A stretch of DNA of 64,000 bases, taken from assembly GCF_056746865.1 (NCBI RefSeq), contig NZ_CM163382.1, one strand, 5' to 3'. Below are positions 24,120-44,419 of the stretch, one piece after another (position 1 is the stretch's first letter; every line of letters starts with the position of its first letter). The notes beneath the pieces were generated by a model, which saw only the letters and a program-made list of their open reading frames with translations, was not told where the DNA came from and did not search any database. Made by a program: the position numbers and the translations under genes.

Positions 24120-25667
<1,548 letters not shown>

Positions 25668-26642: not shown

Positions 26643-26671
26643 TCATACTCCATGATTTTCATCAGTCATAT

Positions 26672-27769: not shown

Positions 27770-27832
27770 TGTGCTTTCCTTCATTACGGGTGAACCGAAA
27801 GTACTGCCGTCACCGACGGCAGTGGAATTATT

Positions 27833-29263: not shown

Positions 29264-30552
29264 AAGCGAACCTCCGTCTGTGCTGTAGCGGTTTCTGCTG
29301 ACGGGGCAGCCGTTTTACGGGTACTGCTCAGGGTGAAAGCCGATAACACGGTGACCGCAAGGACAATACCGCCCAGAACCAGATAGGTGTTCTGGAACCC
29401 CATGCGGTCATACAGGTGACCTGCAAAGGTTGAGAGGAATATCGCCGCCAGTTGTTTGGAGAACTGAAAGCCAATCAGATAAATGGTGGCCGACAGCCGG
29501 GTATCAAACACGCCGGTGATATACTTGAACGCACCAACCAGCAGGAATGGGACTTCAAGGGCATGCAGCATTTTCAGGATCACCACTTCAGTAGCCGTGG
29601 TGGCAAAGGCCGACCCTGTGATGCGGATGGTCATAATCAGACCCGCGACAAGCAGTGTGTTTTTGGCACCAATGCGGTTGATTATCCAGGGGGAGCAGAA
29701 CATGATGATGGCATTGCAAATCTCGCCAGCCGTGGTGGCAAAACCAAATGCCCGGATCCCCGCCTGCGGCGTGTCAAAAAATGCACGGAAGAACGTGGCA
29801 AACTGCTGGTCAAACACGTCATAGACGCAGGCCACCCCAATCATGTAAAGCACGAACATCCACATCTGACGCATACGAAACAGACTGAACACCATTCCGG
29901 CGGAAATCACGGGCGAGTTGGCACCCAGCGCATTCATGACCATCGCTGTCTGACTGGTTCCGGGACGCGCCAGCGCCACCAGAAGGACCAGCAGCAATGC
30001 GCAGCCGGACCCCATCCAGAATACCAGGGACGGATCCACGTTGAAAAGCAGCCCTGCCGTGGTGGCACACAGCGCCCAGCCCAGACAGCCGAACATCCGG
30101 GCCTTACCGTATTCAAATCCGCTGCTGCGGCTGACACGTTCAATATAGGCTTCGATGGCACCGGCTCCCGCAGAAAAAACGAAGCCGATAAAAATCCCGC
30201 CGCTCAGTGCTCCGGCCCAGATGTTGAACCGCAGCAGCGGCGCAAAAACGTACAGAAAGAACGGTGCAAACAGGACCAGCAGCAGGCTGATGATCCACAT
30301 CAGGTGTTTTTTCAGGCCAAGACGGTCTGAGATGACCCCCAGCAGCGGCTGGAAGCTGATGGCAAACAGGGAGAGGCATGAAAAAACAATCCCGGTATCC
30401 GTTTTACTCAGCCCCACAATGTCTGACAGCCAGACGGGCAGAAACGGGAAACAGGTTGCCATGATGAAAAAGTAGAGAAAAAAGAACAGACCAAATATCC
30501 AGAAATCGGGGTTTTTATGAGTACTGACAGTATTCATTATTGTTATCCTCAC
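29260..30552 (-). CDS. rafB: LacY-family oligosaccharide:H+ symporter (raffinose permease RafB-like); start may be the ATG at 30537
   Basis: 12-TM MFS protein with strong similarity to LacY (NPDFWIFGLFFFLYFFI...). Confidence 0.8.
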   Translation of the reverse strand: MRITIMNTVSTHKNPDFWIFGLFFFLYFFIMATCFPFLPVWLSDIVGLSKTDTGIVFSCLSLFAISFQPLLGVISDRLGLKKHLMWIISLLLVLFAPFFLYVFAPLLRFNIWAGALSGGIFIGFVFSAGAGAIEAYIERVSRSSGFEYGKARMFGCLGWALCATTAGLLFNVDPSLVFWMGSGCALLLVLLVALARPGTSQTAMVMNALGANSPVISAGMVFSLFRMRQMWMFVLYMIGVACVYDVFDQQFATFFRAFFDTPQAGIRAFGFATTAGEICNAIIMFCSPWIINRIGAKNTLLVAGLIMTIRITGSAFATTATEVVILKMLHALEVPFLLVGAFKYITGVFDTRLSATIYLIGFQFSKQLAAIFLSTFAGHLYDRMGFQNTYLVLGGIVLAVTVLSAFTLSSTRKTAAPSAETATAQTEVRL

Positions 30553-30591
30553 GGGACTGAGTGCAGGGAGCCGTGACCGGCTCCGGTCCTT

Positions 30592-32718
30592 TTATGCCAA
30601 ACGTTCAAGGGCAATCAGCATGGCGCTTTCCGGATCCAGTACGGGAAGCTGAATACCGGCCTGCGCCAGCCATTCCCCACTGATGTCGGAGGTCTGGTTC
30701 ATCCAGCCGGGCAGCCTGCGCATGGTATGCCCGCCTTCACCGACCAGCTGAATATCCGGATGGTCAACAACACGAAGCCGGTAACGGGCCTGTGGTGCCA
30801 GCCCCGGAAAACGTAGAGCACCCGGCAGGGTGTGATCCGGCATGGCAAGCTGGCTCACCAGGAAGAGCGCCTGCGACTGATCCGGGCTGACCACCCCCTG
30901 CACCTGTGTCGCCGCATCCGGCATATCCACCCGCCATAGGGTGCCCGTGTGGATAAGCTGCCGCCATTCTTTGTAGAGCGAGGCATAGCGGCGGTAACCG
31001 GCGGATTCCTCTTCTCCGGCCGTTACCGGATCCAGCTCCAGTCCCATATGACCGAACAGGGCCGTCAGACCGCGAAAGGCAATGCTGTGCTGCCGGAAGG
31101 TGGCATGGCAGCGATGATGACCGATGTGTGCCCCCATAACCTCCGGCGGGAAAAAGTAACTCATGCCACGCTGTATGGTGCAGCGCTCCAGGGCGTCATT
31201 GTTGTCAGAAGCCCAGAAGCGGTGCGTGCGGGTCAGAACCTCAAAGTCGATACGTCCACCGCCGGAAGCGCAGGACTCAAACTCAACACGGGGAAAACGT
31301 TCGCGCAGGAGATCCAGCAGCCGGTAAAACTGACGGGTCTGCGCGTCCGCCGCCGCCCGACCTTCATGCCCGGCCTGGACCAGCTCGCGGTTCATGTCCC
31401 ATTTCACATAGTCAACTGGGTGTTCGCCCAGCAGCCATAAACAGCGTTCATAAATGTAAGCAAAGGCCTCAGGAATGTTCAGGTTGAGAACATACTGATG
31501 TCTCCCGGTTGGTTGTGTGTACCCCGGCATTGACAGTACCCAGTCAGGATGGCGGCGAAAGAGGTCAGAGTCCGGGTTAATCATTTCCGGTTCCACCCAG
31601 ATACCGAACTCCATGCCGAGTGATTTCACATGGTTAATCACCGGCATCAGTCCGTCCGGATACTTCTGTTCATCCAGATACCAGTCGCCCAGAGCCGCAT
31701 GGTCATCATTGCGTCCCTTAAACCAGCCGTCGTCGATAATGAAACGTTCAACGCCAAGCGCTGCCGCACGTCCGGCCATCTGCATGATGTAGTTCGGGTC
31801 GTGGTCAAAATAAATACCTTCCCAGGTATTGAGGTGCACCGGACGGGGTTTCTGCTCAGGAAAACGGATGATTTCATCGCGCAGAAAACGGTGGTACTGC
31901 TGACTCATACCATTGAGCCCCTCCGGGGAATAGCTGGCGTACAGCCACGGCGTGTACACGGTCTCATCCTTCTTCAGGGCTTTTTCTCCGGGCATCCACA
32001 GTGCTTCCGCCTGGAGGTAACGCCGTCCGTCAGTTTTGACCTCACATTTCATGCGATGGTTGCCACTCCAGCCCAGATGTACGGCCCACACCTCGCCCTG
32101 CTGTTCTGAGAAACCGGGGGCACCGGCAATCAGTGCCGGAAAATGCTCATGGGACGTGCGGCCCCGGCGGTTCTCCAGCACAAAACCGTCATGTGTGAGA
32201 CGGACCCTGTGCGGCTGAAACTCACGAGTCCAGCGTCCGTGGAAGGCCATGACTTCCTCTGCCCTTTCAGCCACAGGGAGCGTGATGGCGAAGCGGTTCA
32301 CCTGCCAGTCCCCTTCACGGAGGTTCGTCAGGGCATGACGCATCTTCAGCACACCGGACGATGTCAGCACCAGTTCACTGACCATGCGCAGACCCGCCAC
32401 TGCATCCTCACTGGTCAGGGTGAGTGATTCTCCGGCCTGTACCACGCTGATGGTACGGAACACAGGGGACGCATCCAGCCCGTTGCGGTGTCCCTCCAGC
32501 CCCGGCGAGCCAAAAAGTCCCGCGCCGTTTTCGGCCATCAGCGTCAGTGGGGTGTCGGTATCCAGACGACCATTCGCAACCGGCCTTTCCAGGCTGATAC
32601 AGTCATCCGGTGAAAAGTGTTTCAGGGTGGATCCCCACCAGACAATCTCTGCATACGGGTGGGTTTTAATAATCAGGTCTGAGTGGGGACTGGTCAGCCT
32701 GCGGTACATCGGTTCCAT
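30592..32718 (-). CDS. rafA: GH36 alpha-galactosidase (RafA-like)
   Basis: 708-aa protein; KWDMNR and CASGGGR segments of family 36 alpha-galactosidases. Confidence 0.8.
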   Translation of the reverse strand: MEPMYRRLTSPHSDLIIKTHPYAEIVWWGSTLKHFSPDDCISLERPVANGRLDTDTPLTLMAENGAGLFGSPGLEGHRNGLDASPVFRTISVVQAGESLTLTSEDAVAGLRMVSELVLTSSGVLKMRHALTNLREGDWQVNRFAITLPVAERAEEVMAFHGRWTREFQPHRVRLTHDGFVLENRRGRTSHEHFPALIAGAPGFSEQQGEVWAVHLGWSGNHRMKCEVKTDGRRYLQAEALWMPGEKALKKDETVYTPWLYASYSPEGLNGMSQQYHRFLRDEIIRFPEQKPRPVHLNTWEGIYFDHDPNYIMQMAGRAAALGVERFIIDDGWFKGRNDDHAALGDWYLDEQKYPDGLMPVINHVKSLGMEFGIWVEPEMINPDSDLFRRHPDWVLSMPGYTQPTGRHQYVLNLNIPEAFAYIYERCLWLLGEHPVDYVKWDMNRELVQAGHEGRAAADAQTRQFYRLLDLLRERFPRVEFESCASGGGRIDFEVLTRTHRFWASDNNDALERCTIQRGMSYFFPPEVMGAHIGHHRCHATFRQHSIAFRGLTALFGHMGLELDPVTAGEEESAGYRRYASLYKEWRQLIHTGTLWRVDMPDAATQVQGVVSPDQSQALFLVSQLAMPDHTLPGALRFPGLAPQARYRLRVVDHPDIQLVGEGGHTMRRLPGWMNQTSDISGEWLAQAGIQLPVLDPESAMLIALERLA

Positions 32719-32811
32719 AAGACATCTCCGTTTTCGGGTATGCCTTACTGTTGATCCGAATCGTTTCGGATAGCAACCGAAACGATTCGAATTTGTGAGC
32801 GGGATTAAAAA

Positions 32812-33822
32812 TCAGGCGGAGGGAGCAAGCGTTGTCTTGCCAGGATGAAATTCCGGCTGCCAGAGTACTTGTAGCATTTCAGGTGAAACATTCGTGACCA
32901 GCTGGCGTATCATGTCGTCAATCTGACGACCGACGCGATGTCGTGTTGACTGAAGAACTGCAGCCACATCCTGTTCAATAATACTGTCCTGCGGCAGACC
33001 ATCATAAACCACAAGAGAGACGGCATCCTCTCCGGACAGATGACCGGATAACTGCAGCGACATGGCCGCGCCATCACCGATCAGGTCACTGTCGGTAATA
33101 ATGGCCGTCGGGGGAAGCGGAAGTGACATTAACTCAGTCACTGCCTGGAAACCTGAGCGTCGGGTGGGAGAGACCCGGCGTAGCCAGGTCTCAGGCAGAC
33201 CATGTTCACTCAGGGCATCGCGCCATCCCTGACGTCGTGCAGTGACATAGGCACGGGAGTTGTCCTCACTCAGCAGGGCAATTCGCTGATGGCCCAGGGC
33301 AATCAGGTGCTGTGTGGCCTGCCAGGTTCCTGCATGGTTATCAAAGTCAAACCAGGCACAGGGAAGACCGGACGGCACCTGACCGAGTGCCAGAAACGGA
33401 ATACCGGCCTCCTGCAGGTGTGTAAGACGCGGGTCATTATCCATCGTGTGCGCCACGATAAGGGCATCAACCCGGCGGCTTTCGACCAGACGCATATAGC
33501 TGTGGCTGTCAGCCCGTTCATCATCGGCTATCAGCAGTAAGTCAATATCATGGCGGGCCAGTTCCCGGCTGATACAACTGACCATATCCACAAACACACT
33601 ACTGCTGAACAGTACAGCATGTTCAGGGAAGACCAGGCCGACCGCATCGGTTTTACCGGTTTTGAGACGTCTTGCCAGGGTATTCGGGCGATAACCACGA
33701 CGCCGAGCTTCCGCTTCTACACGTGCACGGGTCGAAGCGGAAACGTCCGAAAATCCGCCAAGCGCCCGGCTGACTGTGGTGACAGAGATCCCGAGTTCGG
33801 CGGCGATAGCCTTGAGTGACAT
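32812..33822 (-). CDS. rafR: LacI-family transcriptional repressor (RafR-like)
   Basis: N-terminal HTH LKAIAAELGISVTTVSRAL plus periplasmic-binding-fold effector domain. Confidence 0.8.
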   Translation of the reverse strand: MSLKAIAAELGISVTTVSRALGGFSDVSASTRARVEAEARRRGYRPNTLARRLKTGKTDAVGLVFPEHAVLFSSSVFVDMVSCISRELARHDIDLLLIADDERADSHSYMRLVESRRVDALIVAHTMDNDPRLTHLQEAGIPFLALGQVPSGLPCAWFDFDNHAGTWQATQHLIALGHQRIALLSEDNSRAYVTARRQGWRDALSEHGLPETWLRRVSPTRRSGFQAVTELMSLPLPPTAIITDSDLIGDGAAMSLQLSGHLSGEDAVSLVVYDGLPQDSIIEQDVAAVLQSTRHRVGRQIDDMIRQLVTNVSPEMLQVLWQPEFHPGKTTLAPSA

Positions 33823-34156
33823 ATTTTCTCCTGCGGATAACTGAACAGCCCTGTCCCTGATGCGGGTGATCCGGGCAACAAACCTGACAGAGACGCCTGC
33901 ATAAGTGGTCGCGCTGTACCAGTATGAGCCTCCATCATCCTGATTTGTGTATTAACTTTCAATACCGGAGGACGATTTGATTACCGGTTGTTAGCAGGAG
34001 TGCGAATATTAGACCGACGGTGGAGATCTAAGACTCAGTGAGCATAGCGATACACTATATTACTGTAATTAAGCCAGTAAACTTCCTGTTCACTGGCTTA
34101 AACGCTAATGATGTATGCAGTTGAACAAGCTTTTAAACTAATGATTAATTGATATA

Positions 34157-35245
34157 TAGACTGGCCCCCTGAATCTCCAGACAATCAATATCACTTAAAT
34201 AAGTGATAGTCTTAATACTAGTTTCTAGACTAGTCATTGGAGAATAGATGATTGATGTCTTAGGGCCGGAGAAACGCAGACGGCGTACTACACAGGAAAA
34301 GATCGCTATTGTTCAGCAGAGCTTTGAACCGGGAATGACGGTCTCCCTTGTTGCCCGGGGATGGGGAGTAAGCTTAGTCAGCCGTTGTCTCCGGGTGTCG
34401 CGTGCGCAGTTGCACGTCATTCTCAGACGAACCGATGACTGGAAAGATGGTCGCCGCAGCCGTCACTCAGATGATACGGATGTGCTTCTCCGTATACACC
34501 ATGTTATCGGAGAGCTGCCCACGTATGGTTATCGTCGGGTATGGGCGCTGCTTCGCAGACAGGCCGAACTTGATGGTATGCCTGCTATCAATGCCAAACG
34601 TGTTTACCGGATCATGCGCCAGAATGCGCTGTTGCTTGAGCGAAAAACCGCTGTACCGCCATCGAAACGGGCACATACTGGCAAAGTGGCCGTGAAAGAA
34701 AGCAATCAACGATGGTGCTCTGACGGGTTCGAGTTCCGCTGTGATAACGGAGAAAAACTGGGGGTCACGTTCGCGCTGGACTGCTGTGACCGTGAGGCAC
34801 TGCACTGGGCGGTCACTACGGGCGGCTTCGACAGTGAAACAGTACAGGACGTCATGCTGGGAGCGGTGGAACGCCGCTTCGGCAGCGAGCTTCCGACATC
34901 TCCAGTGGAGTGGCTGACGGATAATGGTTCATGCTACCGGGCTAATGAAACACGCCAGTTCGCCCGGATGCTGGGACTTGAACCGAAGAACACGGCGGTG
35001 CGGAGTCCGGAGAGTAACGGCATAGCAGAGAGCTTCGTGAAAACGATAAAGCGTGATTACATCAGTATCATGCCCAAACCAGACGGGTTAACGGCAGCAA
35101 AGAACCTTGCAGAGGCGTTCGAGCATTATAACGAATGGCATCCGCATAGTGCACTGGGTTATCGCTCGCCACGGGAATATCTACGGCAGCGGGCCAGTAA
35201 TGGGTTAAGTGATAACAGGTGTCTGGAAATATAGGGGCAAATCCA
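34157..35245 (+). mobile_element. IS2 deletion derivative (1,089 bp instead of ~1,331 bp)
   Basis: IS2 ends TAGACTGGCCCCCTGAATCTCCAGACAA... and ...CTGGAAATATAGGGGCAAATCCA; internal deletion between two TTGCCCGG repeats. Confidence 0.85.
34248..35234 (+). CDS. IS2 InsC(1-37)::InsD in-frame fusion transposase created by the internal deletion
   Basis: [37 protein letters not shown] joined directly to [21 protein letters not shown]... (InsD). Confidence 0.8.
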
Positions 35246-35440
35246 ATGGCGCAGATACGCTTGCGGATCGATACCATTCAGACAGCAGGTCCGTTCACTA
35301 CCGTAATCGCTGCCGAAGAACACATTGATTGCCCCTCAATAATCCTGCCGTCAACGTCAAAATTGCTGGTCGGGCTCGACTTATTTAATTGTGTAAACAG
35401 GGCCTCTCAGCGAAAGGCCCTTATGCATCACCTGACGTCG

Positions 35441-36007
35441 TTAAAAGTCACTACACCCAAGATGACGTTCAATGGCACCATGCGATTCAATGTAAGCCTG
35501 GGCCGTCTGTTCCAGTACACCAGGCTCAGCGTTGTATGTGTTAGCTGCATCAAATACCAACGACAGCACTTCAGGATACACAACCAGATGTGTAATGGAG
35601 TTATCTTCACCCAATACTTTTCCCCACGCCTGCTCAATCAGATTTCTGAGAGCCACCACCTCACGACTCTTACACCAGACATCGTTATTAAGTAGCAGTA
35701 CCATAAGATAAGGAGTGGTATCGTTAGCCACAGCTTCCCTACTCCAGAGATAATATAAAGGGGCGGGCTCAACAGATTTATCTTTACGTCGCTTGCACTG
35801 CAAATATTCAGAAATTAGTCTATGCAGTTCACCAGTAAAATCAGCCATCAGAGAGGGAATTGCCTTGTTCATACCTGGGCAAGGTATTAATTTAAATTGT
35901 AATAATTTAATTTTAGGATGTGTAGCTGCAGCCCGATACAGAGTTGCAAGGACATACTTTTGCCAGAGGGCGTTACAGGAAAGCTTAACGTTTGATTCTG
36001 TATACAT
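35441..36007 (-). CDS. Hypothetical protein (188 aa), AT-rich island gene
   Basis: ORF followed by a hairpin (35398-35422); no family recognised. Confidence 0.45.
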   Translation of the reverse strand: MYTESNVKLSCNALWQKYVLATLYRAAATHPKIKLLQFKLIPCPGMNKAIPSLMADFTGELHRLISEYLQCKRRKDKSVEPAPLYYLWSREAVANDTTPYLMVLLLNNDVWCKSREVVALRNLIEQAWGKVLGEDNSITHLVVYPEVLSLVFDAANTYNAEPGVLEQTAQAYIESHGAIERHLGCSDF

Positions 36008-36034
36008 AATAAATCACCTTACAGTTACAATAGG

Positions 36035-36649
36035 TCAAAAACCGCTGTAGCCAAAGTTACGCTGGCCTGATGCTTTAGTGTCGAGCTTCGTCAGATAATC
36101 CAGACGTGCCAATAAGCGCTGATATTGCTCAGGGAAATCAGGATCGTTAATATCCAGGATGTAACGTCCATTAGCAGGGAAATGAACTAGTCCCTGGTGA
36201 TCTTCCAGTTCTAACCCTAAGGCACTGTACCAGGCTCCGGTAATTAACCCTCTCAGGGTGTCAGAGCGCTCATAGTCTCCCAGGTGGTAATAGGCGTCTT
36301 TGTTAAAAAAAAGGCAGACGTGATAATGACATTTAAAGGACTGCGTATATTCTTTCGCCCAGATAATACAAACCGACGTTGCGTAGGTGCGTTTGCCTTG
36401 TTGTTTTTTACGGTGTTGATCTGCATTAATTTTCGCATTCAGCGAGTTACGGAAACGAGATATCTCTCCGGGACTCAGGTTAGGAAAACAGGTAATGGTA
36501 TCCCCGTTGTCAATCACGGGAGGATAATGGAGATCCACCCGTATTGCCGTTATTCTGGGATGTTTCTGGAAGAGGTTATTCACCTGGTTTCTTATTTTTA
36601 ACCCGTGAGCCTCATGACATTCACCGTAAAGAGTTTCAATCGTAATCAT
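36035..36649 (-). CDS. YagK/YfjJ-like (inovirus Gp2-type) prophage protein, tentative
   Basis: Size (~204 aa) and position match the yagK/yfjJ genes of CP4-type elements; family call from memory only. Confidence 0.45.
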   Translation of the reverse strand: MITIETLYGECHEAHGLKIRNQVNNLFQKHPRITAIRVDLHYPPVIDNGDTITCFPNLSPGEISRFRNSLNAKINADQHRKKQQGKRTYATSVCIIWAKEYTQSFKCHYHVCLFFNKDAYYHLGDYERSDTLRGLITGAWYSALGLELEDHQGLVHFPANGRYILDINDPDFPEQYQRLLARLDYLTKLDTKASGQRNFGYSGF

Positions 36650-36739
36650 GTTAATATTCCTTTTGCTTTCAGAGATAAGCTAATAGTTAACCTACCCAAT
36701 ACACAACAGAAGCAGATATTAATATTCGTATCAGTAGTT

Positions 36740-36845
36740 CCCAGAGGGATATATAACCCTCTGGGCGTCAATTAAGAAAAACGCTACTGCCTATTGTTAC
36801 ATTAGAGAACAGGATGATGTTACACAGTTACATTAGAACGTTCTA
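36740..36845. promoter_or_regulatory. Iteron/operator-like repeat cluster in a 380-bp AT-rich intergenic region
   Basis: Palindrome CCCAGAGGG-atatataa-CCCTCTGGG (36740-36765); direct repeats GTTACATTAGA(G)AAC at 36796 and 36827; 12-bp palindrome TAGAACGTTCTA (36834-36845). Confidence 0.45.
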
Positions 36846-37030
36846 AAACATTAAACAGAGTTATGATCTACACACAACTAATTATTTGGTATCAGAATAC
36901 CATTAGCTCTATTAGTACATCATATCCATCATTACACATATACTATACATCACAGATATAATATATATTACCTATCCAACGCACATGTATTTATAACTCC
37001 ATTGCCAATAGCTACAAGGACTATAAAATG

Positions 37031-37591
37031 TTACTCTGCAGTTAGATCAACAATACCTTTATCCCAGTGTCTTTTTACAGTGGATAAACTGATGCTTAAT
37101 TTTCTGGCTGTTTGTGACTGACTGAACCCCTGCAATTTCAACTGTCTGATATTTTTACTATGAATACTCCCTTCTTTCCTTCCTGGTTTTCTTTTAATTT
37201 TCCGGATACTGATGTCGGGAATTTTTCCTCTAATATCTGTAGGTAAAATCATCCCGGTGAGTACCACAGGAATATCATCACCATCCGGCAACTCTGATGA
37301 CGTAAAAAAGCAAATATTAATACCTTGTCTGATACTTAAAGATAAAACCTCCTGTATTTTTTCCGGCGTATTACCAAAACAAGTTAACGATTTAGTAATC
37401 AGAATATCACCCCTTTGCATATCCTGCGTCAGGAGTCGAACTAACCGTTTTCTGTCTGCCAGAGTATAATCCGGGCGACCCAATTCGCCTGTTAACTGCA
37501 ATAGTGGTTCTTTAAAATATCTCTGAATCATGGATTTTAAGCGATTAAGTTTTGACCATTTTTCAGAGTCTATGTATGCAAAACTCGCCAT
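37031..37591 (-). CDS. Serine-recombinase (resolvase/invertase) homolog with C-terminal HTH, lacking the catalytic residues
   Basis: Aligns to gamma-delta resolvase (GDILITKSLTCFGN vs GDVILVKKLDRLGR; C-terminal HTH ...QTARKLSISLSTVKRHW) but YARVST is replaced by YIDSEK and DR..R by TC..N. Confidence 0.6.
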   Translation of the reverse strand: MASFAYIDSEKWSKLNRLKSMIQRYFKEPLLQLTGELGRPDYTLADRKRLVRLLTQDMQRGDILITKSLTCFGNTPEKIQEVLSLSIRQGINICFFTSSELPDGDDIPVVLTGMILPTDIRGKIPDISIRKIKRKPGRKEGSIHSKNIRQLKLQGFSQSQTARKLSISLSTVKRHWDKGIVDLTAE

Positions 37592-37812
37592 AATGCCTCA
37601 AACTGGTGTCATGAATTAATTATTGAACCTGTTTTTTCCTGAGTCGCATTACTCTTTTCTAAGGGAGGCTCTCCAGATACATCGGAAAAGTACTCGATAA
37701 AAGAGTTGGCCACTCCCGGGTAATGATTGCTCTCTTTAACCTCAGAAAGCGGTTTCTGTTCATCATTTACACCACGATTTCTGGGTTATGAATAAATCTA
37801 CGCGGGCCATAA

Positions 37813-38559
37813 TCATTCATCTTCAAATGGGTTAATAATAATAACATCTCCACCTGTTCTGGAACTTTGTGAAACTTCCTCTGTTCTCAGAACAGGCACT
37901 ATTACAGCCTTATTATTGATATAAAAAATCGGAATATGAAAAGTACAAAATCCTGTACTACGAATCTGATGTCGCCTCACTGTTTCTTTCGTACCATACT
38001 CAATCAACTCATCTATCGGCAGGCAAACTGAATTGCAAAAGTCAAAAAAATAATCCCCAAAAACACTGGTTTTAATCAGAATGGTTTTATAAAACCCTCC
38101 TGCACGATTCAGGGTATGGGAAACTTTTCTGTTCGTGTAAATACAAATTGCCTTCTCAACTTTATAATATTCCAGCATTAAGGTCGCATTCTCTTTAATT
38201 CCCTTTTTCTCTGCAACTCCCATAGCATTTCTGGTGCTTTCATGAGGAAATATCTTTCTATCGAGAACATCATATTCATATTTGATATGCGATTTATAAA
38301 TGCTATGAAAAAACTCTCCTTTTGTTATTTCAGGCTTTGTCCGTTGCACAAATGGTTCCTCATTAAAAAACTGACGTAGCTTATCCTCTATATCAGTTAT
38401 AGCAGCAATATTTTCATTTATCCTGTTTAAAACAGGAGCCCCTAGCTTTAAACACTCTTTAATCGCTGCTGAAAATGAGCATTTTTTTAAATGCTGATAC
38501 TTTTTAATTACATCAGCTTCATATGTTTCTGCAAGAGAGAAAGAGACACGTTTCATCAT
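37813..38559 (-). CDS. Hypothetical protein with N-terminal ribbon-helix-helix-like domain (248 aa)
   Basis: N-terminus MMKRVSFSLAETYEADVIKKYQHLKKCSFSAAIKECLKLG has the beta-strand/helix pattern of RHH (CopG/Arc) domains; the remainder is unassigned. Confidence 0.45.
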   Translation of the reverse strand: MMKRVSFSLAETYEADVIKKYQHLKKCSFSAAIKECLKLGAPVLNRINENIAAITDIEDKLRQFFNEEPFVQRTKPEITKGEFFHSIYKSHIKYEYDVLDRKIFPHESTRNAMGVAEKKGIKENATLMLEYYKVEKAICIYTNRKVSHTLNRAGGFYKTILIKTSVFGDYFFDFCNSVCLPIDELIEYGTKETVRRHQIRSTGFCTFHIPIFYINNKAVIVPVLRTEEVSQSSRTGGDVIIINPFEDE

Positions 38560-38621
38560 GAAACTCCTTTTTAATTATAAAATTAAAATATAGAAATATA
38601 TATTATTCTGATACTATAAGG

Positions 38622-38849
38622 TTAATACTGACTAATCCACCACAATAGATCACTTAATAACCACCCACAGGATTTCTTTCCAATAGTTTTACGTGGCGGG
38701 AATTTTCCTTCACGTTCCAGTTTCCAGGCTTGTGAACGAGAAATAGACGTAATTTTCTGGCGTTCCTTTTCTCGTACCAGTCTGTCACAGGTGTATCCAT
38801 AGATCTTCAAAATTGATAAACGGTTCTCATCTCTTAACGGCTTCCACAT
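38622..38849 (-). CDS. AlpA-family prophage transcriptional regulator
   Basis: ...ITSISRSQAWKLEREGKFPPRKTIGKKSCGWLLSDLLWWI matches the AlpA pattern (SRSTIYRL..GKFP.P.KLG.RSV.W...V..WI). Confidence 0.65.
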   Translation of the reverse strand: MWKPLRDENRLSILKIYGYTCDRLVREKERQKITSISRSQAWKLEREGKFPPRKTIGKKSCGWLLSDLLWWISQY

Positions 38850-39628
38850 ATTGCTCTCCTTATATATTCATGATTTTCAGATTGTATATGCATGTGAGCT
38901 GCTCAAATCACTACATCTATCTGTAGTGGTATGCTGTTGAACAGCACCAGCAACTCACGAGCAAAACAATACATTTGCACAACCAAGAAATCAAATTGCG
39001 AGAAATGATTTAATTAACTGACTTCTAATAACACAATAACAACAAAGAAAGTCACAATATAAAAATAACTTAAACAATGCTTTTTGGTATACAAAATAAA
39101 AATCAAAATCACAATATTCGTAGGTTATTTTATGCAGACAAAAACAAAAAAAATCTTGTTATAATCTATGATATCAAGAGGAGGGGTAGTGACCAAAAAT
39201 TCTCCCCAGAAAAGCCCCCACAACATTAGTTTGAAAACGTGACGAAGTTCACAAAATTATCTTCTGGCGATAATAGAACTTGTAAGAGGGAGTTGATTTT
39301 TGCCAACTTTCTAAAGCTAAAGTGCAGACAAAAGATAATAATTGAATGAAAACGATACATATTTTCAGATGAAAGTGACGTGACTGTAGAGGGCTATAAC
39401 CGTAAAATCATTTGCGTCCTGAGCAATATGCAACAAAAGGGAATGCTCGTAAAAAAATCAGGAATAAACGCTAAGGATATCGTATTAGATTCAGCATCGT
39501 ATAATGCCACTGCATAACTGATTCCCATTTCGTAGAGGCTGTTAACTCTGTATCAATGTCCTGACAAAGGACTGTATCAAGTTTCTCTACTGGAAACAGC
39601 TATGCAATAGACGGAAGAATTTAACATT

Positions 39629-41233
39629 ATGGTAACTAAAAAGGTAAAAACAAACCACCCGTACTATCGTGTTTTATCCGGCACCTCCATGCCGTTTCCC
39701 CACATACATGAAGCTGTTTCCGAACAGTTGCTTCTACTCATTTTCAAAGCACGCAGATTGTATCTGGATCCAGAATATCGTCCTTGGTTTGATGAACAAC
39801 ATCGGATTCTCTCGGCATTACGCGCTAACACAAAACTCCAAAGTATTTTAGAGAAAAACAGAGAGAACTACTCCATAAGTGAGACCGATAATCCACTATC
39901 TAAAGATCTGTATGCTGCTTTTCAGGTTATGTGCCATTTATACAATGGTTTTGATAACAGACTCGTCAGCCTGAAAACCTGGGGAGATATGAACAGGGAA
40001 CCAACAGCAAAATTTGTCGGCCAAAATAGTGGTGGCTGGAAAACACCTGAGATGGAAGAATTCGTCAGAAACGATTTGTTCAATATTCTGACAGATTGTA
40101 AAGCTCATTGCTCACCACTTCCCGCTCTGGTTCGACAAGGATATTGCCATCAGGATCTTTCTGTTGCGCACTCATGTACTAAAGAATTACTGGAACAACT
40201 GAACCGATACCATCAAATTGATGAATCAGCGATACTTGCCAGAACCCTTGGTTTGGCTATTAACAACTGCTATCACTCAGAAACAGAGATTCCTGAATGG
40301 CTTTCTCCTTTTGAAAATGAATACAAAAGTCCCTGGAATTGTGAGAAACCAGATACTAACGATGTGAGTAAACTTAGAAAACAATTGCTAACAATCGGGC
40401 GTACAGAATTCGTGGACAAAATGTTTTCGCTAGCCAACAAAAATGCAACAAAGATAATATATGATGGATACGTTAAACTTTATGCTCTGGAAATATATGA
40501 ATGGTTAAATAAATTAGTGCAATATTTTAAAGGAAATGATTTTATTCGTTACACCTGGAAGTTCACAACAATTATTTCCGATGAAAGTGACACGATTGAA
40601 AACACCACCGCATGGGAAAAAGACTATTGTCAAATCACTATACAGCGTGATGAACTTCTGAAACTGATTTATACCAATACCCTGCAGGATGCAGCAATGA
40701 ATCTTGCTGATTGCCTGCAACAGGCATACACAGAACCGTTAAAAATGGAAATAAATTATCCAGGAATAAACATTGATGCAAAAGAGCGTAAAATTAGAAA
40801 ATCTATTGAATTCAGGAGCGAACTGAATAACTTCACAAACATCATGAAACAACTGGAAATATTTGAAAAATGGTATAACGCCAATAAAATTCTGTTGGTA
40901 AGTAACAAAAAGATACGTACAGAAAAGATTGACGTGAATATTCGTCTTGCAGGACTAAAAGGCTATGATCTGAATGAAGGTATACCTGATGGTCAGGGAC
41001 GCAGAATTAAAGATGGTGTAAATGAACTTGTCAAGGCAGATGGCAGTCTACAACTTCCACAAGATATCAGTGACACTTCGCTTAACCGTTACCGTCAAGC
41101 AGTTCAACACATTATTAAGGATGAGATCGACACGTTGCTGATAGCACAGAGGGAAAAAAATAAAATAAATCCATATAGCGAAGATAGATACTCGATACGA
41201 CCTTTATGGGGAAAATGTCTGGTCGAACAGTAA
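39629..41233 (+). CDS. Hypothetical protein (534 aa), AT-rich, in the integrase-proximal cargo slot; function unknown
   Basis: Long ORF with SD GGAAG upstream; no recognisable catalytic motifs apart from a possible R-x4-H (RQAVQH) near the C-terminus. Confidence 0.6.
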   Translation: MVTKKVKTNHPYYRVLSGTSMPFPHIHEAVSEQLLLLIFKARRLYLDPEYRPWFDEQHRILSALRANTKLQSILEKNRENYSISETDNPLSKDLYAAFQVMCHLYNGFDNRLVSLKTWGDMNREPTAKFVGQNSGGWKTPEMEEFVRNDLFNILTDCKAHCSPLPALVRQGYCHQDLSVAHSCTKELLEQLNRYHQIDESAILARTLGLAINNCYHSETEIPEWLSPFENEYKSPWNCEKPDTNDVSKLRKQLLTIGRTEFVDKMFSLANKNATKIIYDGYVKLYALEIYEWLNKLVQYFKGNDFIRYTWKFTTIISDESDTIENTTAWEKDYCQITIQRDELLKLIYTNTLQDAAMNLADCLQQAYTEPLKMEINYPGINIDAKERKIRKSIEFRSELNNFTNIMKQLEIFEKWYNANKILLVSNKKIRTEKIDVNIRLAGLKGYDLNEGIPDGQGRRIKDGVNELVKADGSLQLPQDISDTSLNRYRQAVQHIIKDEIDTLLIAQREKNKINPYSEDRYSIRPLWGKCLVEQ

Positions 41234-41315
41234 CTCACTGAGAAAGGGGATAGCAGTTCGCTATCCCCAAAGGAGACTTTCCAGCAAGATCTCAAAAAAT
41301 GAGACACTCAGCAAA

Positions 41316-41942
41316 TTATGCGGCTTTACCATTAACAGATTCAGCCACAAGAACGACAGCGTGTCTGTTTCGCTCAGGATGTTCACTCCAGATTTCTGAT
41401 TCCGGGATGCTTTTCCCGTCATAACTGATCCGTTCGCCATCAAACGGGTAATACCGTGCGGAATCAGTATCTAAAATAAACACCTTCAGATTCGTTGAAC
41501 GACGCGCAATATGCTGCCAGAGAGCTTTACCTCCTTCATATTGCTCGTTATCACTTAATAGTACAACGCCCGCTTTTGTGACTATCGTTTCATAAACAAA
41601 CGTTGCAAGACCAACATCACGTACAGCGCCATCGACAACAATCCCTTCAATCTGAGCAACATCCTGTTCTTCCCAGAATTTCTGGACAAACACGCCTTCA
41701 AGCCGGGGACGACGCTGAAGCTCCAGAGTGGCAACAACCTTATGGCGAACATCACCATCAATAACAGAAGGTGCAGCTTCGATTACCGCAGCAAACGGAG
41801 TCTTTGGATCCCAGATGATCTGGTAAAGCACGCCCTGAATAGTTACTCCATCCAGTATCGAAAAACGACGAGCTACAGTAGCAGGGGAGTAAGACATTGG
41901 AATTACAGCCATTTTTGAATCCCCTCTGAGTAATACCGGCAC
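41316..41942 (-). CDS. Hypothetical protein (198-208 aa); GTG start at 41942 or ATG at 41912
   Basis: ORF convergent with the 534-aa gene; both candidate starts have an SD; no family recognised. Confidence 0.5.
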   Translation of the reverse strand: MPVLLRGDSKMAVIPMSYSPATVARRFSILDGVTIQGVLYQIIWDPKTPFAAVIEAAPSVIDGDVRHKVVATLELQRRPRLEGVFVQKFWEEQDVAQIEGIVVDGAVRDVGLATFVYETIVTKAGVVLLSDNEQYEGGKALWQHIARRSTNLKVFILDTDSARYYPFDGERISYDGKSIPESEIWSEHPERNRHAVVLVAESVNGKAA

Positions 41943-42041
41943 GAAAATTTACCTCAATAATTATAGTAAACAATACAAGAACCAAGTGCATCAACAATAC
42001 CCATCAATTGTACACAATTCGTACAGCAACCAGGAACTCCC

Positions 42042-43358
42042 TCACCTTCTGCCAAACAGATTGACAACATTATTGCCTGTTTGCTGTTGATAGTTATTAA
42101 CCCGGTCCTCCCAGATCTCAAGTGCTCTGCGTTTTTCTGGCAAATAATCGTATCGATCATAATGTTTTGAACTGACATCGTTCAACGCATGATTTTGAAT
42201 ACGATCGCGGATTTCCTTACTGATCCCAGCTTCTCCCATTAACGTTTTACAGGTCCGACGTAAGTCACGTGCTGTAAAAATTTTAAAGTCAGGATTAAAA
42301 GCCCGGAAATACATGATAGCGCGAGCCAGACTGTCCGTACGAACCGGACGCTTACCATTAGTCGAAAGTGGAAAAATGTAAGGGCTGGATTTTTCTTTTG
42401 TTAACTCCTGCACACAGGATAATTCCTGTAATGCTGATTCAGTCAACGGTATCAAATGCTCTCGTTTATTTTTAGAGACATCAGCAGTCACCAGCAGCGT
42501 TTTTTGTTGAAAATCAACATCACACCACTGACTGGCGATCATTTCGAAAGGACGTTGCCCTCCGGTATAGATACAGAATCGGATCAAATGTTGCATCAAT
42601 AATCCAACGTTGGTTGCTTCAGCAAAATGTTCCATTAGAAAACGCAACTCTTCAAGTGTCAGCCAGGTATCACCGACTTTTTCAGCAGATGACTGTTTCG
42701 GTATCACTGACACCGGATTTGCCTCCAGCCCAAAAGTAATCCCTACACTTGTGTTCATCGGATCGTTATCTGCTTTCAGTCCATAGTTAAATGCAGCCAT
42801 CAGGTAAGAACGGATCCGGTTAGAGTGAACCACAGCACCGCGCTGAATGATCCCGGCCAGGATATGTTTAATCTGTCCGGAAGTCACATCTTTAGCTTTA
42901 GTTTCACGGGGGATCACTGTATAGCATTCATTTTCAAGGCGTTTCAGAACATCCTGCCATGTCCTCTTATTATCAATTTTCATTTTGTTAACATAACCAT
43001 GAATCAATGCTTCAAATGAGCCCTGTGATTGATGGAGTTGTATCCGCTGCTGTTCTGCAAACTGTTGTCGTTCCAGTTCTGCCTGGGGATCCTTTCCTTC
43101 AATGAGCCAGGCACCATACTTTTTTGTCAGTTCATTCGCTGTGGCCAGTTTCATCTCAGGCCATATACCCAATTGAATGAATCTTTCTTTTTTCCCTTTT
43201 TCCACGTAATAGCGGAAATAGAAAATCTTGCTGCCAGAAGGCTGAACTTTGACACCAAGTCGTCCAGTGCCACGTTGAGAGCTGTTGCTCCAGACATAGA
43301 ACGATGTCTTTTTTGCTTTCAATGCTCGGATGGCTGTTTCAGTAAGATTGACGGCCAT
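42042..43358 (-). CDS. int: P4-type tyrosine integrase
   Basis: 438-aa protein with N-terminal arm-binding domain (KIFYFRYY...) and C-terminal tyrosine-recombinase domain; adjacent to the tRNA-derived attachment core. Confidence 0.85.
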   Translation of the reverse strand: MAVNLTETAIRALKAKKTSFYVWSNSSQRGTGRLGVKVQPSGSKIFYFRYYVEKGKKERFIQLGIWPEMKLATANELTKKYGAWLIEGKDPQAELERQQFAEQQRIQLHQSQGSFEALIHGYVNKMKIDNKRTWQDVLKRLENECYTVIPRETKAKDVTSGQIKHILAGIIQRGAVVHSNRIRSYLMAAFNYGLKADNDPMNTSVGITFGLEANPVSVIPKQSSAEKVGDTWLTLEELRFLMEHFAEATNVGLLMQHLIRFCIYTGGQRPFEMIASQWCDVDFQQKTLLVTADVSKNKREHLIPLTESALQELSCVQELTKEKSSPYIFPLSTNGKRPVRTDSLARAIMYFRAFNPDFKIFTARDLRRTCKTLMGEAGISKEIRDRIQNHALNDVSSKHYDRYDYLPEKRRALEIWEDRVNNYQQQTGNNVVNLFGRR

Positions 43359-43405
43359 AGAACCTCTTTTCTAAACCAGTAACAATCAGAATAACTCGTG
43401 ATTTT

Positions 43406-43428
43406 GGGTCAGGTAATGGGTCAGGTAA
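43406..43428. repeat. Tandem direct repeats GGGTCAGGTAA x2 between integrase and the att core (candidate integrase arm sites)
   Basis: Two 11-bp copies separated by 1 bp, located 48 bp upstream of the integrase start. Confidence 0.5.
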
Positions 43429-43554
43429 CGATCGTACAATGAAGAAAAAACGGAACCAAGCGGAGACAGGGAAAATCACATAATTTATTGATTACAAACA
43501 ACTAATAAAGCAATCACGAACAAACAAAAACAATATAGAACGAACTTGCCTCAT

Positions 43555-43601
43555 GACTCATAATCGCTTGGTCGCTGGTTCAAGTCCAGCAGGGGCCACC
43601 A
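43555..43601 (+). other. ileX: 3' 47 nt of tRNA-Ile(CAU) (ileX-type): island/backbone junction (att core); the 5' part of the tRNA is absent here
   Basis: GACTCATAATCGCTTGGTCGCTGGTTCAAGTCCAGCAGGGGCCACCA matches the remembered 3' portion of E. coli tRNA-Ile2 from the anticodon loop to CCA; sequence upstream does not match the tRNA. Confidence 0.7.
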
Positions 43602-43610
43602 GATATAGCA

Positions 43611-43645
43611 AAGGCTGACGAGAAATCGTCAGCCTTTTTCTTTTT
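43611..43645 (+). terminator. Rho-independent terminator (native ileX terminator)
   Basis: Hairpin AAGGCTGACG-agaaat-CGTCAGCCTT followed by TTTTTCTTTTT. Confidence 0.75.
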
Positions 43646-43654
43646 ATATATCAG

Positions 43655-44419
43655 TTACTTTGCGTGCCAGTAAGCCGCTGCACGTACCCGCTGTGGATCA
43701 TACTGTTCCGCTTCAAAGCGGCGGCTTAAATTCTTAACGACTTTGCCTTCGCCGGTTATCCAGATGAAGTAATCATCGGCAGGGATTTGCATCTGCGCCA
43801 GACGCGCATCTACCGCCTGCTCATCATGTGCCAGCCATTCGATATTAAAACCATCAAGGTGCGCGAGATAATCCTGACAGGCGTGATCCCGCACGCTAAC
43901 CAGCGCGCTAACTTGCGGTTTAACAGCAAGTTTGCTCAACGTTTCCAGGCGGCGGCGCAGTGCGGGCATTCCGGATTCATCGCAGACATACAGCTGATAC
44001 GCGTAATCCTCTGGCATCACCAGCGAACCGCGCGGACCTGCCACCGTGAGTTTATCGCCCGGTTGCGCCTGCATTGCCCAGCTGCTGGCGACGCCACCTT
44101 CGTGAATAAAGAAATCAATCGCCAGTTCATGGCGTAGTTCGTCATACAGCGGCGTATAGTCACGCGACGGTGGGCGTGGTCCTTCCGGCCAGACGATGCC
44201 CTCTTCCGTTACCGTTGGCGGCACAAAGTGAGCATCAGATTGAGGAAAGAAGAGTTTGCTGTGATCGTCAAAGCCGCGCGATGTAAAACCGTCCAGCGCC
44301 TCGCCGCCAAGGACAATGCGCTGAAAACCGGCGCTAATACGCTCAGCGCGTAGCACAGTCAGTTCACGGAAGCGCAGATCATTGCGAACGCGCTGCGGGT
44401 AGCGGGGGGAGTTATTCAT
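43655..44419 (-). CDS. yqjH: Siderophore-interacting protein / NADPH-dependent ferric chelate reductase
   Basis: 254-aa protein matching remembered E. coli K-12 YqjH; conserved position after ileX. Confidence 0.9.
   Translation of the reverse strand: MNNSPRYPQRVRNDLRFRELTVLRAERISAGFQRIVLGGEALDGFTSRGFDDHSKLFFPQSDAHFVPPTVTEEGIVWPEGPRPPSRDYTPLYDELRHELAIDFFIHEGGVASSWAMQAQPGDKLTVAGPRGSLVMPEDYAYQLYVCDESGMPALRRRLETLSKLAVKPQVSALVSVRDHACQDYLAHLDGFNIEWLAHDEQAVDARLAQMQIPADDYFIWITGEGKVVKNLSRRFEAEQYDPQRVRAAAYWHAK

What the first reader, a model, noticed from the sequence alone, without database searches (positions are those of the whole stretch)
43406..43601. Island/backbone junction: truncated ileX att core beside the integrase, with tandem arm-like repeats
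Only the 3' 47 nt of tRNA-Ile(CAU) are present, anticodon loop to CCA, followed by the native ileX terminator and yqjH. Everything to the left, at least 43.5 kb to the window start, is therefore inserted DNA. The integrase start faces this partial copy, whereas in most tRNA-borne islands the integrase lies beside the intact tRNA. The intact ileX and the other att junction must lie beyond the left edge. Two 11-bp direct repeats GGGTCAGGTAA lie between integrase and core and may be arm-type binding sites.
Basis: partly seen in the sequence, partly recalled or inferred. Interest (0 to 1): 0.5.

Follow-up and report, generated by a model that had tools for sequence, protein, structure and literature searches.

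The report
Island end in tRNA-Ile gene ileX
This is the right-hand attachment site of a large mobile genomic island that inserted into the E. coli tRNA gene ileX; the short tandem repeats next to it are very probably the docking sites of the island's own integrase, and the whole arrangement is an ordinary, well-conserved example of a known kind of element.

Summary
Window 43555-43601 is an exact copy of the last 47 nt of K-12 ileX (tRNA positions 30-76), followed by the native ileX terminator and nfeF/yqjH. No intact tRNA lies in the window.

The DNA to the left is an island. K-12 and 4955 of 5426 complete E. coli genomes have mug-ileX-nfeF contiguous; 357 carry this integrase-nfeF junction. 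In close relatives the intact ileX sits at the far end, 44-60 kb away. Its 3' half is island-derived, with four T-arm differences, so exact attL/attR identity is only 20 nt.

The tandem GGGTCAGGTAA pair is very probably a set of integrase arm-type sites:
- A second identical pair lies on the other arm, 59 nt after CCA.
- The pair is invariant in 20 genera.
- More distant integrases keep the 12-bp-period layout with their own motif, and one has it on both arms.
- A conserved IHF consensus lies between the pair and the core.
- The integrase has an arm-binding N-domain.

The "integrase beside the fragment" layout is a family trait (about 60 species) and also occurs in K-12 CP4-6. Binding and excision were not tested. 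Verdict: an ordinary island junction, correctly read; low interest.

The parts
1..43554 (.). Island DNA, right-hand 43.5 kb of a roughly 44-60 kb ileX island. Cargo includes a type I R-M remnant, an IS5-flanked dms-like operon, lactate-utilisation genes, IS3 and group II intron remnants, and a fos/raf-like sugar locus.
   Evidence: Absent from the K-12 mug-ileX-nfeF site. Positions 19539-48766 are 99.9% identical to the JSWP006 island. Positions 1582-20000 match the C21 island at 99.2%.
38622..38849 (-). Candidate excisionase / recombination directionality factor, 75 aa, AlpA-like
   Evidence: phrog_2790 'excisionase and transcriptional regulator', E 3e-22. Annotated as an HTH regulator in JSWP006.
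42042..43358 (-). Tyrosine integrase, 438 aa, with its start codon facing the att core
   Evidence: Pfam Arm-DNA-bind_3 (residues 5-97), Phage_int_M and Phage_integrase. phrog_1 integrase. Full-length homologues at 84-87% identity in many Enterobacterales.
43359..43554 (.). P arm of the attachment site (island side of attR). It must also contain the integrase promoter.
   Evidence: Alignment of 20 P arms. No sigma-70 consensus promoter was found.
43406..43416 (+). Arm-type site, copy 1 (GGGTCAGGTAA)
43418..43428 (+). Arm-type site, copy 2 (GGGTCAGGTAA), 12-bp period
   Evidence: An identical tandem pair lies on the P' arm at attL in JSWP006 and C21.
43481..43493 (-). IHF consensus site (AATCAATAAATTA = WATCAANNNNTTR)
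   Evidence: One of only 2 matches in 64 kb. It sits at the same position (-74 from the core) in 18 of 19 close relatives, with the N positions varying.
43555..43601 (+). Displaced native 3' 47 nt of ileX (tRNA positions 30-76). Positions 43557-43563 are the anticodon loop CTCATAA, the presumed crossover/overlap region. Positions 43555-43574 are the 20-nt block exactly shared with attL.
43610..43647 (+). Native ileX intrinsic terminator (hairpin 43610-43637 plus T-run)
   Evidence: Identical to K-12.
43655..44419 (-). nfeF (yqjH), the first backbone gene

Best explanation
Window 43359-43647 is attR, the integrase-proximal junction of an integrative genomic island sitting in the tRNA-Ile2 gene ileX.

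Shown:
- The island's attP carries its own copy of the ileX 3' part plus a terminator. Integration therefore left a functional chimeric ileX at the far end (attL). It pushed the native 47-nt 3' part and the native terminator to this end.
- Exact identity between the two junctions is 20 nt, running from the last two bases of the 5' strand of the anticodon stem into the first T-stem base. The identity starts at tRNA position 29/30 in about 60 species.

Inferred:
- The crossover is in or next to the 7-nt anticodon loop, with the anticodon-stem halves acting as core-type sites.
- The 438-aa integrase is heterobivalent. Its catalytic and core-binding domains act at the core.
- Its N-terminal Arm-DNA-binding domain docks on GGGTCAGGTAA sites. 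Two tandem copies lie on the P arm, 129-151 nt from the loop; most relatives add a third, inverted copy. Two more tandem copies lie on the P' arm, 59-81 nt beyond CCA.
- IHF bends the P arm at a consensus site between the arm sites and the core.
- The P-arm sites lie 48-70 nt upstream of the integrase ATG, so they probably also repress the integrase promoter, as in P4 and KplE1.
- Excision would need the AlpA-like protein encoded at 38622-38849.

The placement of the integrase beside the displaced fragment, divergent from it, is the normal polarity of attP in this integrase family.
For: **Junction**
- The fragment is 47/47 identical to K-12 ileX and unique in the window.
- The downstream DNA equals the K-12 empty site, including the terminator.
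- The empty site occurs in 4955 of 5426 E. coli genomes, this attR in 357, and the matching attL in 347.
- In JSWP006 and C21 an intact ileX lies at the far end. It differs at tRNA positions 50, 59, 60 and 64, with C50-G64 changed to U50-A64, and has a different terminator. This shows an island-supplied 3' half.

**Family layout**
- In 61 of 79 loci from other species, the integrase start lies 170-300 nt from a tRNA-Ile2 3' fragment that begins at position 29/30, in the same orientation.
- The fragments carry species-specific T-arms.
- No intact tRNA sits next to the integrase, except in two Aeromonas loci.

**Arm sites**
- The same tandem pair occurs on the P' arm of attL.
- The pair is invariant in all 20 P arms of the group with 84% identity or more, while the flanks vary.
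- 50 of 61 loci have a tandem pair, always with period 12. 38 of 61 pairs have at most 1 mismatch, against 0.6% of shuffled arms. 34 have an inverted copy nearer the integrase. At least 8 lineage-specific motifs occur.
- Motilimonas L041, a complete 4-kb island, has its own motif as an identical 30-nt block on both arms.
- The integrase has PF13356, an Arm DNA-binding domain.

**Accessory elements**
- IHF consensus site.
- Candidate directionality factor.
- Autoregulation precedent: PMC2951348.
Against: Nothing here demonstrates binding, cleavage positions or mobility.

- No sigma-70-like promoter was found in the P arm, so the autoregulation step rests on position only.
- The E. coli and E. 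albertii lineage has lost the inverted third arm copy that 18 of 20 relatives keep. This could mean reduced activity.
- No contiguous attP (circular form or tandem array) is present in complete E. coli genomes.
- The integrase family has Arg where tyrosine recombinases normally have the box II His: RDLRR instead of HxLRR. Its catalytic competence is assumed from conservation, not shown.
- The window itself does not reach attL.
Confidence: 0.85

Rival explanations
1. The tandem GGGTCAGGTAA repeats are binding sites for a different protein, not integrase arm-type sites. Candidates are the AlpA-like directionality factor or a repressor of the integrase promoter.
For: The repeats lie 48-70 nt upstream of the integrase ATG, where an operator would sit. 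Directionality factors such as Xis and TorI also bind short tandem direct repeats in att arms (established knowledge; PMC2951348). An AlpA-like gene is present.
Against: The same tandem pair is present on both arms of attP. That is typical of integrase arm sites and not of directionality-factor sites, which cluster on one arm. The motif co-varies with integrase lineage in loci whose other island genes differ. The integrase carries a dedicated arm-binding domain.
Confidence: 0.08
2. The DNA between ileX and this junction is not one element. It is a tandem or composite array, and the integrase and att site at this end belong only to a small right-hand module.
For: Tandem arrays at this site exist in other species. 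P'-type repeats follow the fragment in L039, L057, L059 and L089. The island interior is a mosaic with many IS remnants and differs between strains.
Against: Only one integrase gene is annotated in the JSWP006 island. No internal ileX fragment exists in the window, even with 3 mismatches allowed. No further GGGTCAGGTAA pair lies inside it. The P' arm at the far end carries exactly the motif of this integrase, so the two ends are a matched pair.
Confidence: 0.05
3. The repeats are a chance or slippage duplication without function, and the 47-nt segment is a decayed tRNA pseudogene rather than an att site.
For: A single 12-bp duplication could arise by slippage. One 1-mismatch copy elsewhere in the window (751-761) is at chance level.
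Against: The pair is invariant across 20 genera and present on both arms, with conserved architecture in 50 of 61 loci. The fragment is 47/47 identical to the native gene, starts at the same tRNA position in about 60 species, and has an intact partner gene at the other end.
Confidence: 0.01

Closest known systems
E. coli K-12 cryptic prophage CP4-6 (thrW / intF)
   Same: Identical layout. The intact tRNA gene lies next to the toxin-antitoxin/RadC/antirestriction end module. The integrase is at the far end on the opposite strand, with its start about 100 nt from a displaced tRNA 3' fragment that begins in the anticodon stem. A short motif (GCTGGTGTAAGTAAAT) is repeated near both junctions. The same family of end-module genes occurs next to ileX in JSWP006 and C21.
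   Different: The target tRNA differs (thrW, not ileX). IntF is only 25% identical over part of the catalytic domain.
P4-type integrases and CP4-57 IntA islands (tRNA or tmRNA followed by the integrase)
   Same: Same domain plan: an N-terminal arm-binding DUF4102/PF13356 domain plus a tyrosine recombinase catalytic domain. Same island class, with a 3' tDNA fragment as direct repeat.
   Different: 24% identity to IntA. The score is far below the NCBIfam PRK09692 cutoff (75.6 against 434 bits). The polarity is opposite: in CP4-57 the integrase follows the intact gene, here it sits beside the displaced fragment. The box II His is replaced by Arg.
Lambda / KplE1-type attP with arm-type sites, IHF site and a self-repressed integrase promoter (Panis et al. 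2010, PMC2951348)
   Same: Repeated arm motifs lie on both sides of a core, with an IHF consensus between arm and core. Arm sites lie just upstream of an integrase gene that is transcribed away from the att site.
   Different: In KplE1 the promoter/att overlap is at attL, beside the intact argW. Here it is at attR, beside the fragment. No binding or expression data exist for this family.
Vibrio 'tRNA-Met' islands (VPaI-1, and VSP-II and VVI-I at the homologous site; Hurley et al. 2006, PMC1464126)
   Same: VPaI-1 is published with a P4-like integrase (VP0380) as the first gene, next to VP0379. The 'tRNA-Met' gene lies at the other end, with 45-bp direct repeats. A V. parahaemolyticus member of the present family (52% identity) lies next to VP0379: the published VP0379 primers match. 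It has a tRNA-Ile2(CAU) 3' fragment 197 nt from its start.
   Different: The published VP0380 primers did not match that locus, so identity with VP0380 itself is unproven. Cargo is unrelated. No circular intermediate was detected for VPaI-1.

Membership tests
tDNA-integrated genomic island (Islander signature) | A displaced tDNA end fragment in the same orientation as, and downstream of, an intact cognate tDNA, with the island between them | tested here: met
   The fragment is in the window. The intact ileX is at the other end in JSWP006 and C21, in the same orientation. The window's own attL is outside the window.
tDNA-integrated genomic island (Islander signature) | A tyrosine integrase gene inside the island | tested here: met
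   42042-43358 (-), Pfam PF13356 + PF22022 + PF00589.
tDNA-integrated genomic island (Islander signature) | An unoccupied site exists in conspecific genomes | tested here: met
   mug-ileX-nfeF is contiguous in 4955 of 5426 complete E. coli genomes and in K-12.
tDNA-integrated genomic island (Islander signature) | Excision to a circular form and a repaired attB | not testable with these tools
   No contiguous attP was found in complete E. coli genomes. PCR or long-read data are needed.
P4-like (DUF4102-type) tyrosine integrase | N-terminal arm-type DNA-binding domain (PF13356) | tested here: met
   Residues 5-97, E 8e-14.
P4-like (DUF4102-type) tyrosine integrase | Catalytic domain with the canonical R...HxxR...Y signature | tested here: inconclusive
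   PF00589 matches. The box II Arg and the C-terminal H...Y region are conserved. The box II His is Arg (RDLRR), invariant in 15 family members.
P4-like (DUF4102-type) tyrosine integrase | Reaches the curated score of the CP4-57/P4-type NCBIfam model PRK09692 | tested here: not met
   75.6 bits against a cutoff of 434. 24% identity to IntA. This is a distinct clade.
Heterobivalent-integrase attP (arm-type sites + core + IHF) | The same short motif repeated on both arms flanking the core | tested here: met
   2 copies on the P arm (window) and 2 on the P' arm (attL of JSWP006 and C21). The same holds with a different motif in L041.
Heterobivalent-integrase attP (arm-type sites + core + IHF) | The motif is conserved among close integrases and changes with integrase lineage | tested here: met
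   Invariant in 20 of 20 close relatives. At least 8 lineage-specific motifs share the 12-bp-period architecture, seen in 50 of 61 loci.
Heterobivalent-integrase attP (arm-type sites + core + IHF) | A host bending-factor site between arm and core | tested here: met
   IHF consensus at 43481-43493. Positionally conserved in 18 of 19 close relatives. 25 of 61 loci overall have one, against 0.76 expected. This is a consensus match only.
Heterobivalent-integrase attP (arm-type sites + core + IHF) | The integrase N-domain physically binds the arm motif | not testable with these tools
   Requires EMSA or footprinting.

The most novel reading that the evidence does not exclude
The integrase belongs to a so far uncharacterised clade spread across Gammaproteobacteria that is dedicated to tRNA-Ile2(CAU). 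Three features define it:
- reversed att polarity, with the integrase always beside the displaced fragment;
- an invariant Arg in place of the box II His;
- a rigid arm-site architecture (an inverted copy plus a 12-bp-period tandem pair on the P arm, and a tandem pair on the P' arm) whose sequence co-evolves with the integrase.

The clade would then be a natural set of mutually orthogonal integrase/arm-site pairs that all use one universal attB.
Probability: 0.3. Interest if true: 0.35.

Novelty: new member of a known kind. Interest (0 to 1): 0.22.

Why it matters
The result precisely delimits one end of a 44-60 kb accessory island that about 6.5% of complete E. coli genomes carry. It also shows that these strains use a chimeric tRNA-Ile2.

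It supplies a testable attP map for an integrase clade found from Escherichia to Vibrio, Aeromonas and Colwellia: the core, four arm sites and an IHF site. Lineage-specific arm motifs on a shared attB could be useful for integrase engineering.

For genome annotation, it is a reminder that the integrase can mark the fragment end of a tDNA island as a family rule, not only the intact-tRNA end. None of this changes current understanding of how such islands work.

Tried and rejected
- **Promoter.** The sigma-70 scan of 43300-43700 found nothing, so I make no promoter assignment.
- **Contiguous attP.** I searched complete E. coli genomes for the reconstructed 341-bp attP. Only attR sites were returned, extended through the homologous terminator to query position 291. 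None included the P' repeats.
- **Williams 2002** (tRNA sublocation paper) is not held. The Islander paper gives no statistics on which island end carries the integrase.
- **NCBIfam** gave no specific family for the integrase or its neighbours.
- **CP4-6 relatedness.** I tested whether the integrase is a close relative of IntF, because the layout is the same. It is not: 25% identity over part of the catalytic domain.
- **VP0380 identity.** I tested whether the V. parahaemolyticus homologue is VP0380 itself. The VP0379 primers match the neighbouring gene, but the VP0380 primers do not match.
- **Window 751-761.** The 1-mismatch motif copy there is at chance level and was dismissed.
- **JSWP006 as source.** I first assumed the window came from a JSWP006-like genome. 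Only 19539-48766 matches. The left 19.5 kb resembles C21-type islands.

Full report
**1. What is in the sequence**

Window 43555-43601 (+) reads GACTCATAATCGCTTGGTCGCTGGTTCAAGTCCAGCAGGGGCCACCA. This equals positions 30-76 of the annotated K-12 ileX (tRNA-Ile, anticodon CAU) at 47 of 47 positions. It is the only match in the 64-kb window even with three mismatches allowed, and none is expected by chance.

It covers the last two bases of the 5' anticodon-stem strand, the anticodon loop CTCATAA (43557-43563), the 3' stem strand, the variable loop, the T-arm, the acceptor 3' strand and CCA. ARAGORN finds no tRNA gene anywhere in the window, and Rfam finds no tRNA.

From 43555 rightward the window is collinear with the K-12 empty site. 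The features in order are the terminator hairpin at 43610-43637 with its T-run, nfeF (yqjH) at 43655-44419 (-), nfeR (yqjI) and aer.

To the left, a 438-aa ORF at 42042-43358 (-) starts 196 nt from the fragment. The 11-mer GGGTCAGGTAA occurs exactly twice in the window, at 43406-43416 and 43418-43428.

**2. It is an island junction**

K-12 has mug-ileX-nfeF adjacent. A 601-bp probe spanning that site is contiguous in 4955 of 5426 complete E. coli genomes. The integrase-nfeF junction of the window is present in 357 genomes.

The window's exact genome is not in the collection. Positions 19539-48766 are 99.9% identical to strain JSWP006, and positions 1582-20000 are 99.2% identical to strain C21.

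In both strains the island runs from this junction to an intact ileX next to mug. That is 43.9 kb in JSWP006 and about 60 kb in C21. The gene order from the ileX end is:
- DUF4942, DUF957, cbtA/cbeA toxin-antitoxin pair
- JAB/RadC protein, antirestriction protein, DUF932
- Ag43 adhesin and a GTPase
- variable cargo
- YfjJ-like genes, an HTH protein, and the integrase next to the fragment.

The attL-type junction is present in 347 genomes, consistent with the 357 that carry attR. It rests on close relatives rather than on the strain itself.

**3. Anatomy of the two junctions**

Aligning the K-12 attB, the two attL sequences and the window attR shows that the intact ileX in occupied genomes is a chimera. 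Its 5' part is native.

From the T-stem onward it differs from K-12 at tRNA positions 50 (C to T), 59-60 (GT to AC) and 64 (G to A). Positions 50 and 64 pair, so C-G becomes U-A and the stem is preserved. It is followed by a different, though recognisably homologous, terminator hairpin.

The island therefore supplies its own 3' half of the gene plus a terminator, and the native 3' half is what sits in the window. Exact identity between attL and attR is only 20 nt (GACTCATAATCGCTTGGTCG, window 43555-43574), not 47.

The crossover must lie within those 20 nt. The identity begins at position 29/30 in about 60 species. This fits the anticodon-loop class of tRNA integration sites listed in the Islander paper. 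In that class the two strands of the anticodon stem are generally taken to serve as inverted core-type sites around a 7-nt overlap. The exact cleavage positions are inferred.

**4. The tandem repeats**

On the island side of attL, 59 and 71 nt after CCA, the same GGGTCAGGTAA-T-GGGTCAGGTAA pair occurs in the same orientation, in both JSWP006 and C21. The reconstructed 341-bp attP, from the integrase ATG to the DUF4942 stop, therefore has two copies on each arm.

Several lines of comparative evidence point the same way.

- **Domain content.** The integrase has an N-terminal Arm DNA-binding domain (PF13356, residues 5-97), a central domain and a catalytic domain.
- **Invariance among close relatives.** I fetched 79 loci encoding relatives from one genome per species. 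In all 20 P arms of integrases at 84% identity or more, across many genera including Yersinia, Kluyvera, Citrobacter, Photorhabdus, Brenneria and Cedecea, the 23-bp tandem block is invariant except for the spacer base. The surrounding sequence varies.
- **A third copy.** Eighteen of those 20 also have an inverted copy (TTACCTGACCC) about 12 nt nearer the integrase. The window and E. albertii have lost it.
- **Covariation with lineage.** More distant lineages (39-58% identity) keep the architecture but use a different motif. Examples are GGGTGAYGTAA, GGGTGTAGTTA, GGGTGATCTAA, TTAGTCAAACA, TTAGTCAAGTA, ATTACTGCAGT, AAGTGTACTTG and GGGTCAAGTAA.
- **Counts.** Over the 61 loci with an Ile2 core beside the integrase, 50 have a tandem pair, and every one has a period of exactly 12. 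38 pairs have at most one mismatch, against 0.6% of shuffled arms. 34 loci have the inverted copy.
- **Both arms in a second lineage.** In Motilimonas L041, a complete 4-kb island, the lineage's own motif forms an identical 30-nt block on both arms.

Conservation within a lineage, covariation between lineages, presence on both arms and a dedicated binding domain together make integrase arm-type sites the best reading. The alternative, sites for the directionality factor or a repressor, is less likely because such sites are normally confined to one arm.

**5. IHF site**

The consensus WATCAANNNNTTR occurs only twice in the 64-kb window. One copy is at 43481-43493 (-), between the arm sites and the core. 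In 18 of 19 close relatives a match sits at the same distance, -74 from the core. The four N positions vary while the specified positions are kept. Overall 25 of 61 P arms have a match, against 0.76 expected from the density elsewhere in the same loci.

**6. The "wrong-end" integrase**

That is the commonly catalogued arrangement: 1273 integrase genes adjacent to tRNA genes were tabulated by Panis et al..

For this family the opposite polarity is the rule. In 61 of 79 loci the integrase start lies 170-300 nt from a tRNA-Ile2 3' fragment, always divergent from it. The fragment's T-arm differs between species, as expected for displaced native sequence. ARAGORN finds no intact tRNA next to the integrase, except in two Aeromonas loci.

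In four short islands (L035, L041, L053, L081) the intact gene is seen on the far side of the integrase, as in E. coli.

K-12 itself has a precedent. In CP4-6 the intact thrW abuts the ykfI/yafW end module, and intF sits at the far end about 100 nt from a thrW 3' fragment. IntF is only distantly related to this integrase (25% identity).

The published V. parahaemolyticus island VPaI-1 has the same layout, with the integrase VP0380 at one end and 'tRNA-Met' at the other. A family member occupies that same site beside VP0379.

The consequence is that the integrase promoter and the P-arm sites stay together in attR. Read-through from the tRNA promoter cannot enter the integrase gene.

**7. How it most likely works**

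Shown:
- the site, the chimeric tRNA and the matched arm repeats;
- their conservation and covariation;
- the IHF consensus and the domain content of the integrase.

Inferred:
- The integrase bridges arm and core sites with IHF bending.
- Strand exchange occurs in or beside the anticodon loop.
- The P-arm sites, 48-70 nt upstream of the ATG, also down-regulate the integrase gene, by analogy with P4 and KplE1. No consensus promoter was detected.
- Excision needs the 75-aa AlpA-like protein at 38622-38849 (phrog_2790).

Whether this copy is still mobile is unknown. The integrase is full length, but the third P-arm site is missing. No attP junction is visible in complete genomes.

**8. Comparison with known systems and novelty**

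The integrase is a distant member of the P4-like, DUF4102-type tyrosine integrases.
- It is 24% identical to CP4-57 IntA.
- It scores 75.6 bits against a cutoff of 434 for NCBIfam PRK09692.
- The best phage integrase match is 38.7% identical.
- The family has an invariant Arg where the box II His normally sits.

ileX is already listed as an island insertion site in E. coli. The att architecture follows the lambda/P4/KplE1 paradigm.

I found no description of the arm sites of this clade. What is there is a new, well-resolved member of a known kind, not a new mechanism. Interest is low (0.22). The first-stage reading was essentially correct.

Noticed in passing
L001 47735-47810 (JSWP006) and L004 1514-1589 (C21); corresponds to the unseen attL of the window's island: Strains carrying the island express a chimeric tRNA-Ile2. 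The T-arm is island-derived (U50-A64 instead of C50-G64, and A59 C60 instead of G59 U60), and the island also brings its own terminator. The same T-arm variant is the native one in Kluyvera, Escherichia sp. ESNIH1 and Enterobacter sp. Bisph1 fragments.
   Followed up: partly
window 42042-43358 (-), residue R364: The integrase family has RDLRR where tyrosine recombinases normally have HxLRR. Arg replaces the box II His. The Arg is invariant in 15 members down to 52% identity, and it aligns to the His of IntA and IntF.
   Followed up: partly
window 43359-43405 compared with L007-L022, L024, L064 and L072: The 47 nt between the integrase ATG and the tandem pair are replaced in the E. coli and E. 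albertii lineage. The inverted third arm copy (TTACCTGACCC), present in 18 of 20 relatives, is therefore missing. This may affect integrase regulation or recombination efficiency.
   Followed up: no
window 1574-4050 and 9406-11882: Two 2.47-kb direct copies, 99.4% identical, are bounded by IS5-type terminal repeats (GGAAGGTGCGAA...). They are annotated as ISKpn26-family in C21. Each contains an Rfam 'isrC' hit, at 3583-3705 and 11415-11537. They flank a DMSO/selenate-reductase-like operon, giving a composite-transposon-like module inside the island.
   Followed up: partly
window about 19540-23000: A group II intron (Rfam domain hit at 20026-20112; ltrA in relatives) is inserted in an IS3 remnant that also gives the ALIL pseudoknot hit at 22639-22755.
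   Followed up: no
window about 24100-33800: A sugar-utilisation cargo cluster: carbohydrate porin, fructokinase-like kinase, DUF2913 proteins, an EIIA-like protein, a GH32 hydrolase, an MFS transporter, alpha-galactosidase and a LacI-type regulator. From memory it resembles the fos/raf type of locus. This was not tested.
   Followed up: no
L039 (Salinivibrio), L057, L059, L089 (V. parahaemolyticus): The tRNA fragment next to the integrase is followed by a terminator and then by P'-type tandem repeats. In some of these loci the repeats carry another lineage's motif, for example GGGTCAGGTAA x2 after an integrase whose own motif is TTAGTCAAACA. This indicates tandem arrays or remnants of different family members at one tRNA.
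   Followed up: partly
L038 2754-2829 and L040 2752-2828 (Aeromonas): These are exceptions. A full-length tRNA(CAU)-like sequence, with imperfections in the T-stem or acceptor stem, sits where other loci have only the 3' fragment. The crossover position is at the usual distance from the integrase. The attP of these elements may carry a whole tRNA copy. This is unexplained.
   Followed up: no
L011 (MAG labelled Flavobacterium psychrophilum) and L058 (MAG labelled Flavobacteriales): These contigs carry an Enterobacterales-type (86% identity) or Aliivibrio-type integrase with the matching ileX fragment and arm sites. They are probably mis-binned or contaminant contigs in those MAGs.
   Followed up: no
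L006 35062-35082 and 1000-1020 (K-12 CP4-6): CP4-6 has a shared motif (TAAC(T/A)GCTGGTGTAAGTAAAT) near both of its junctions. One copy overlaps the start of intF and one lies about 55 nt after thrW. These may be its own arm-type sites.
   Followed up: no
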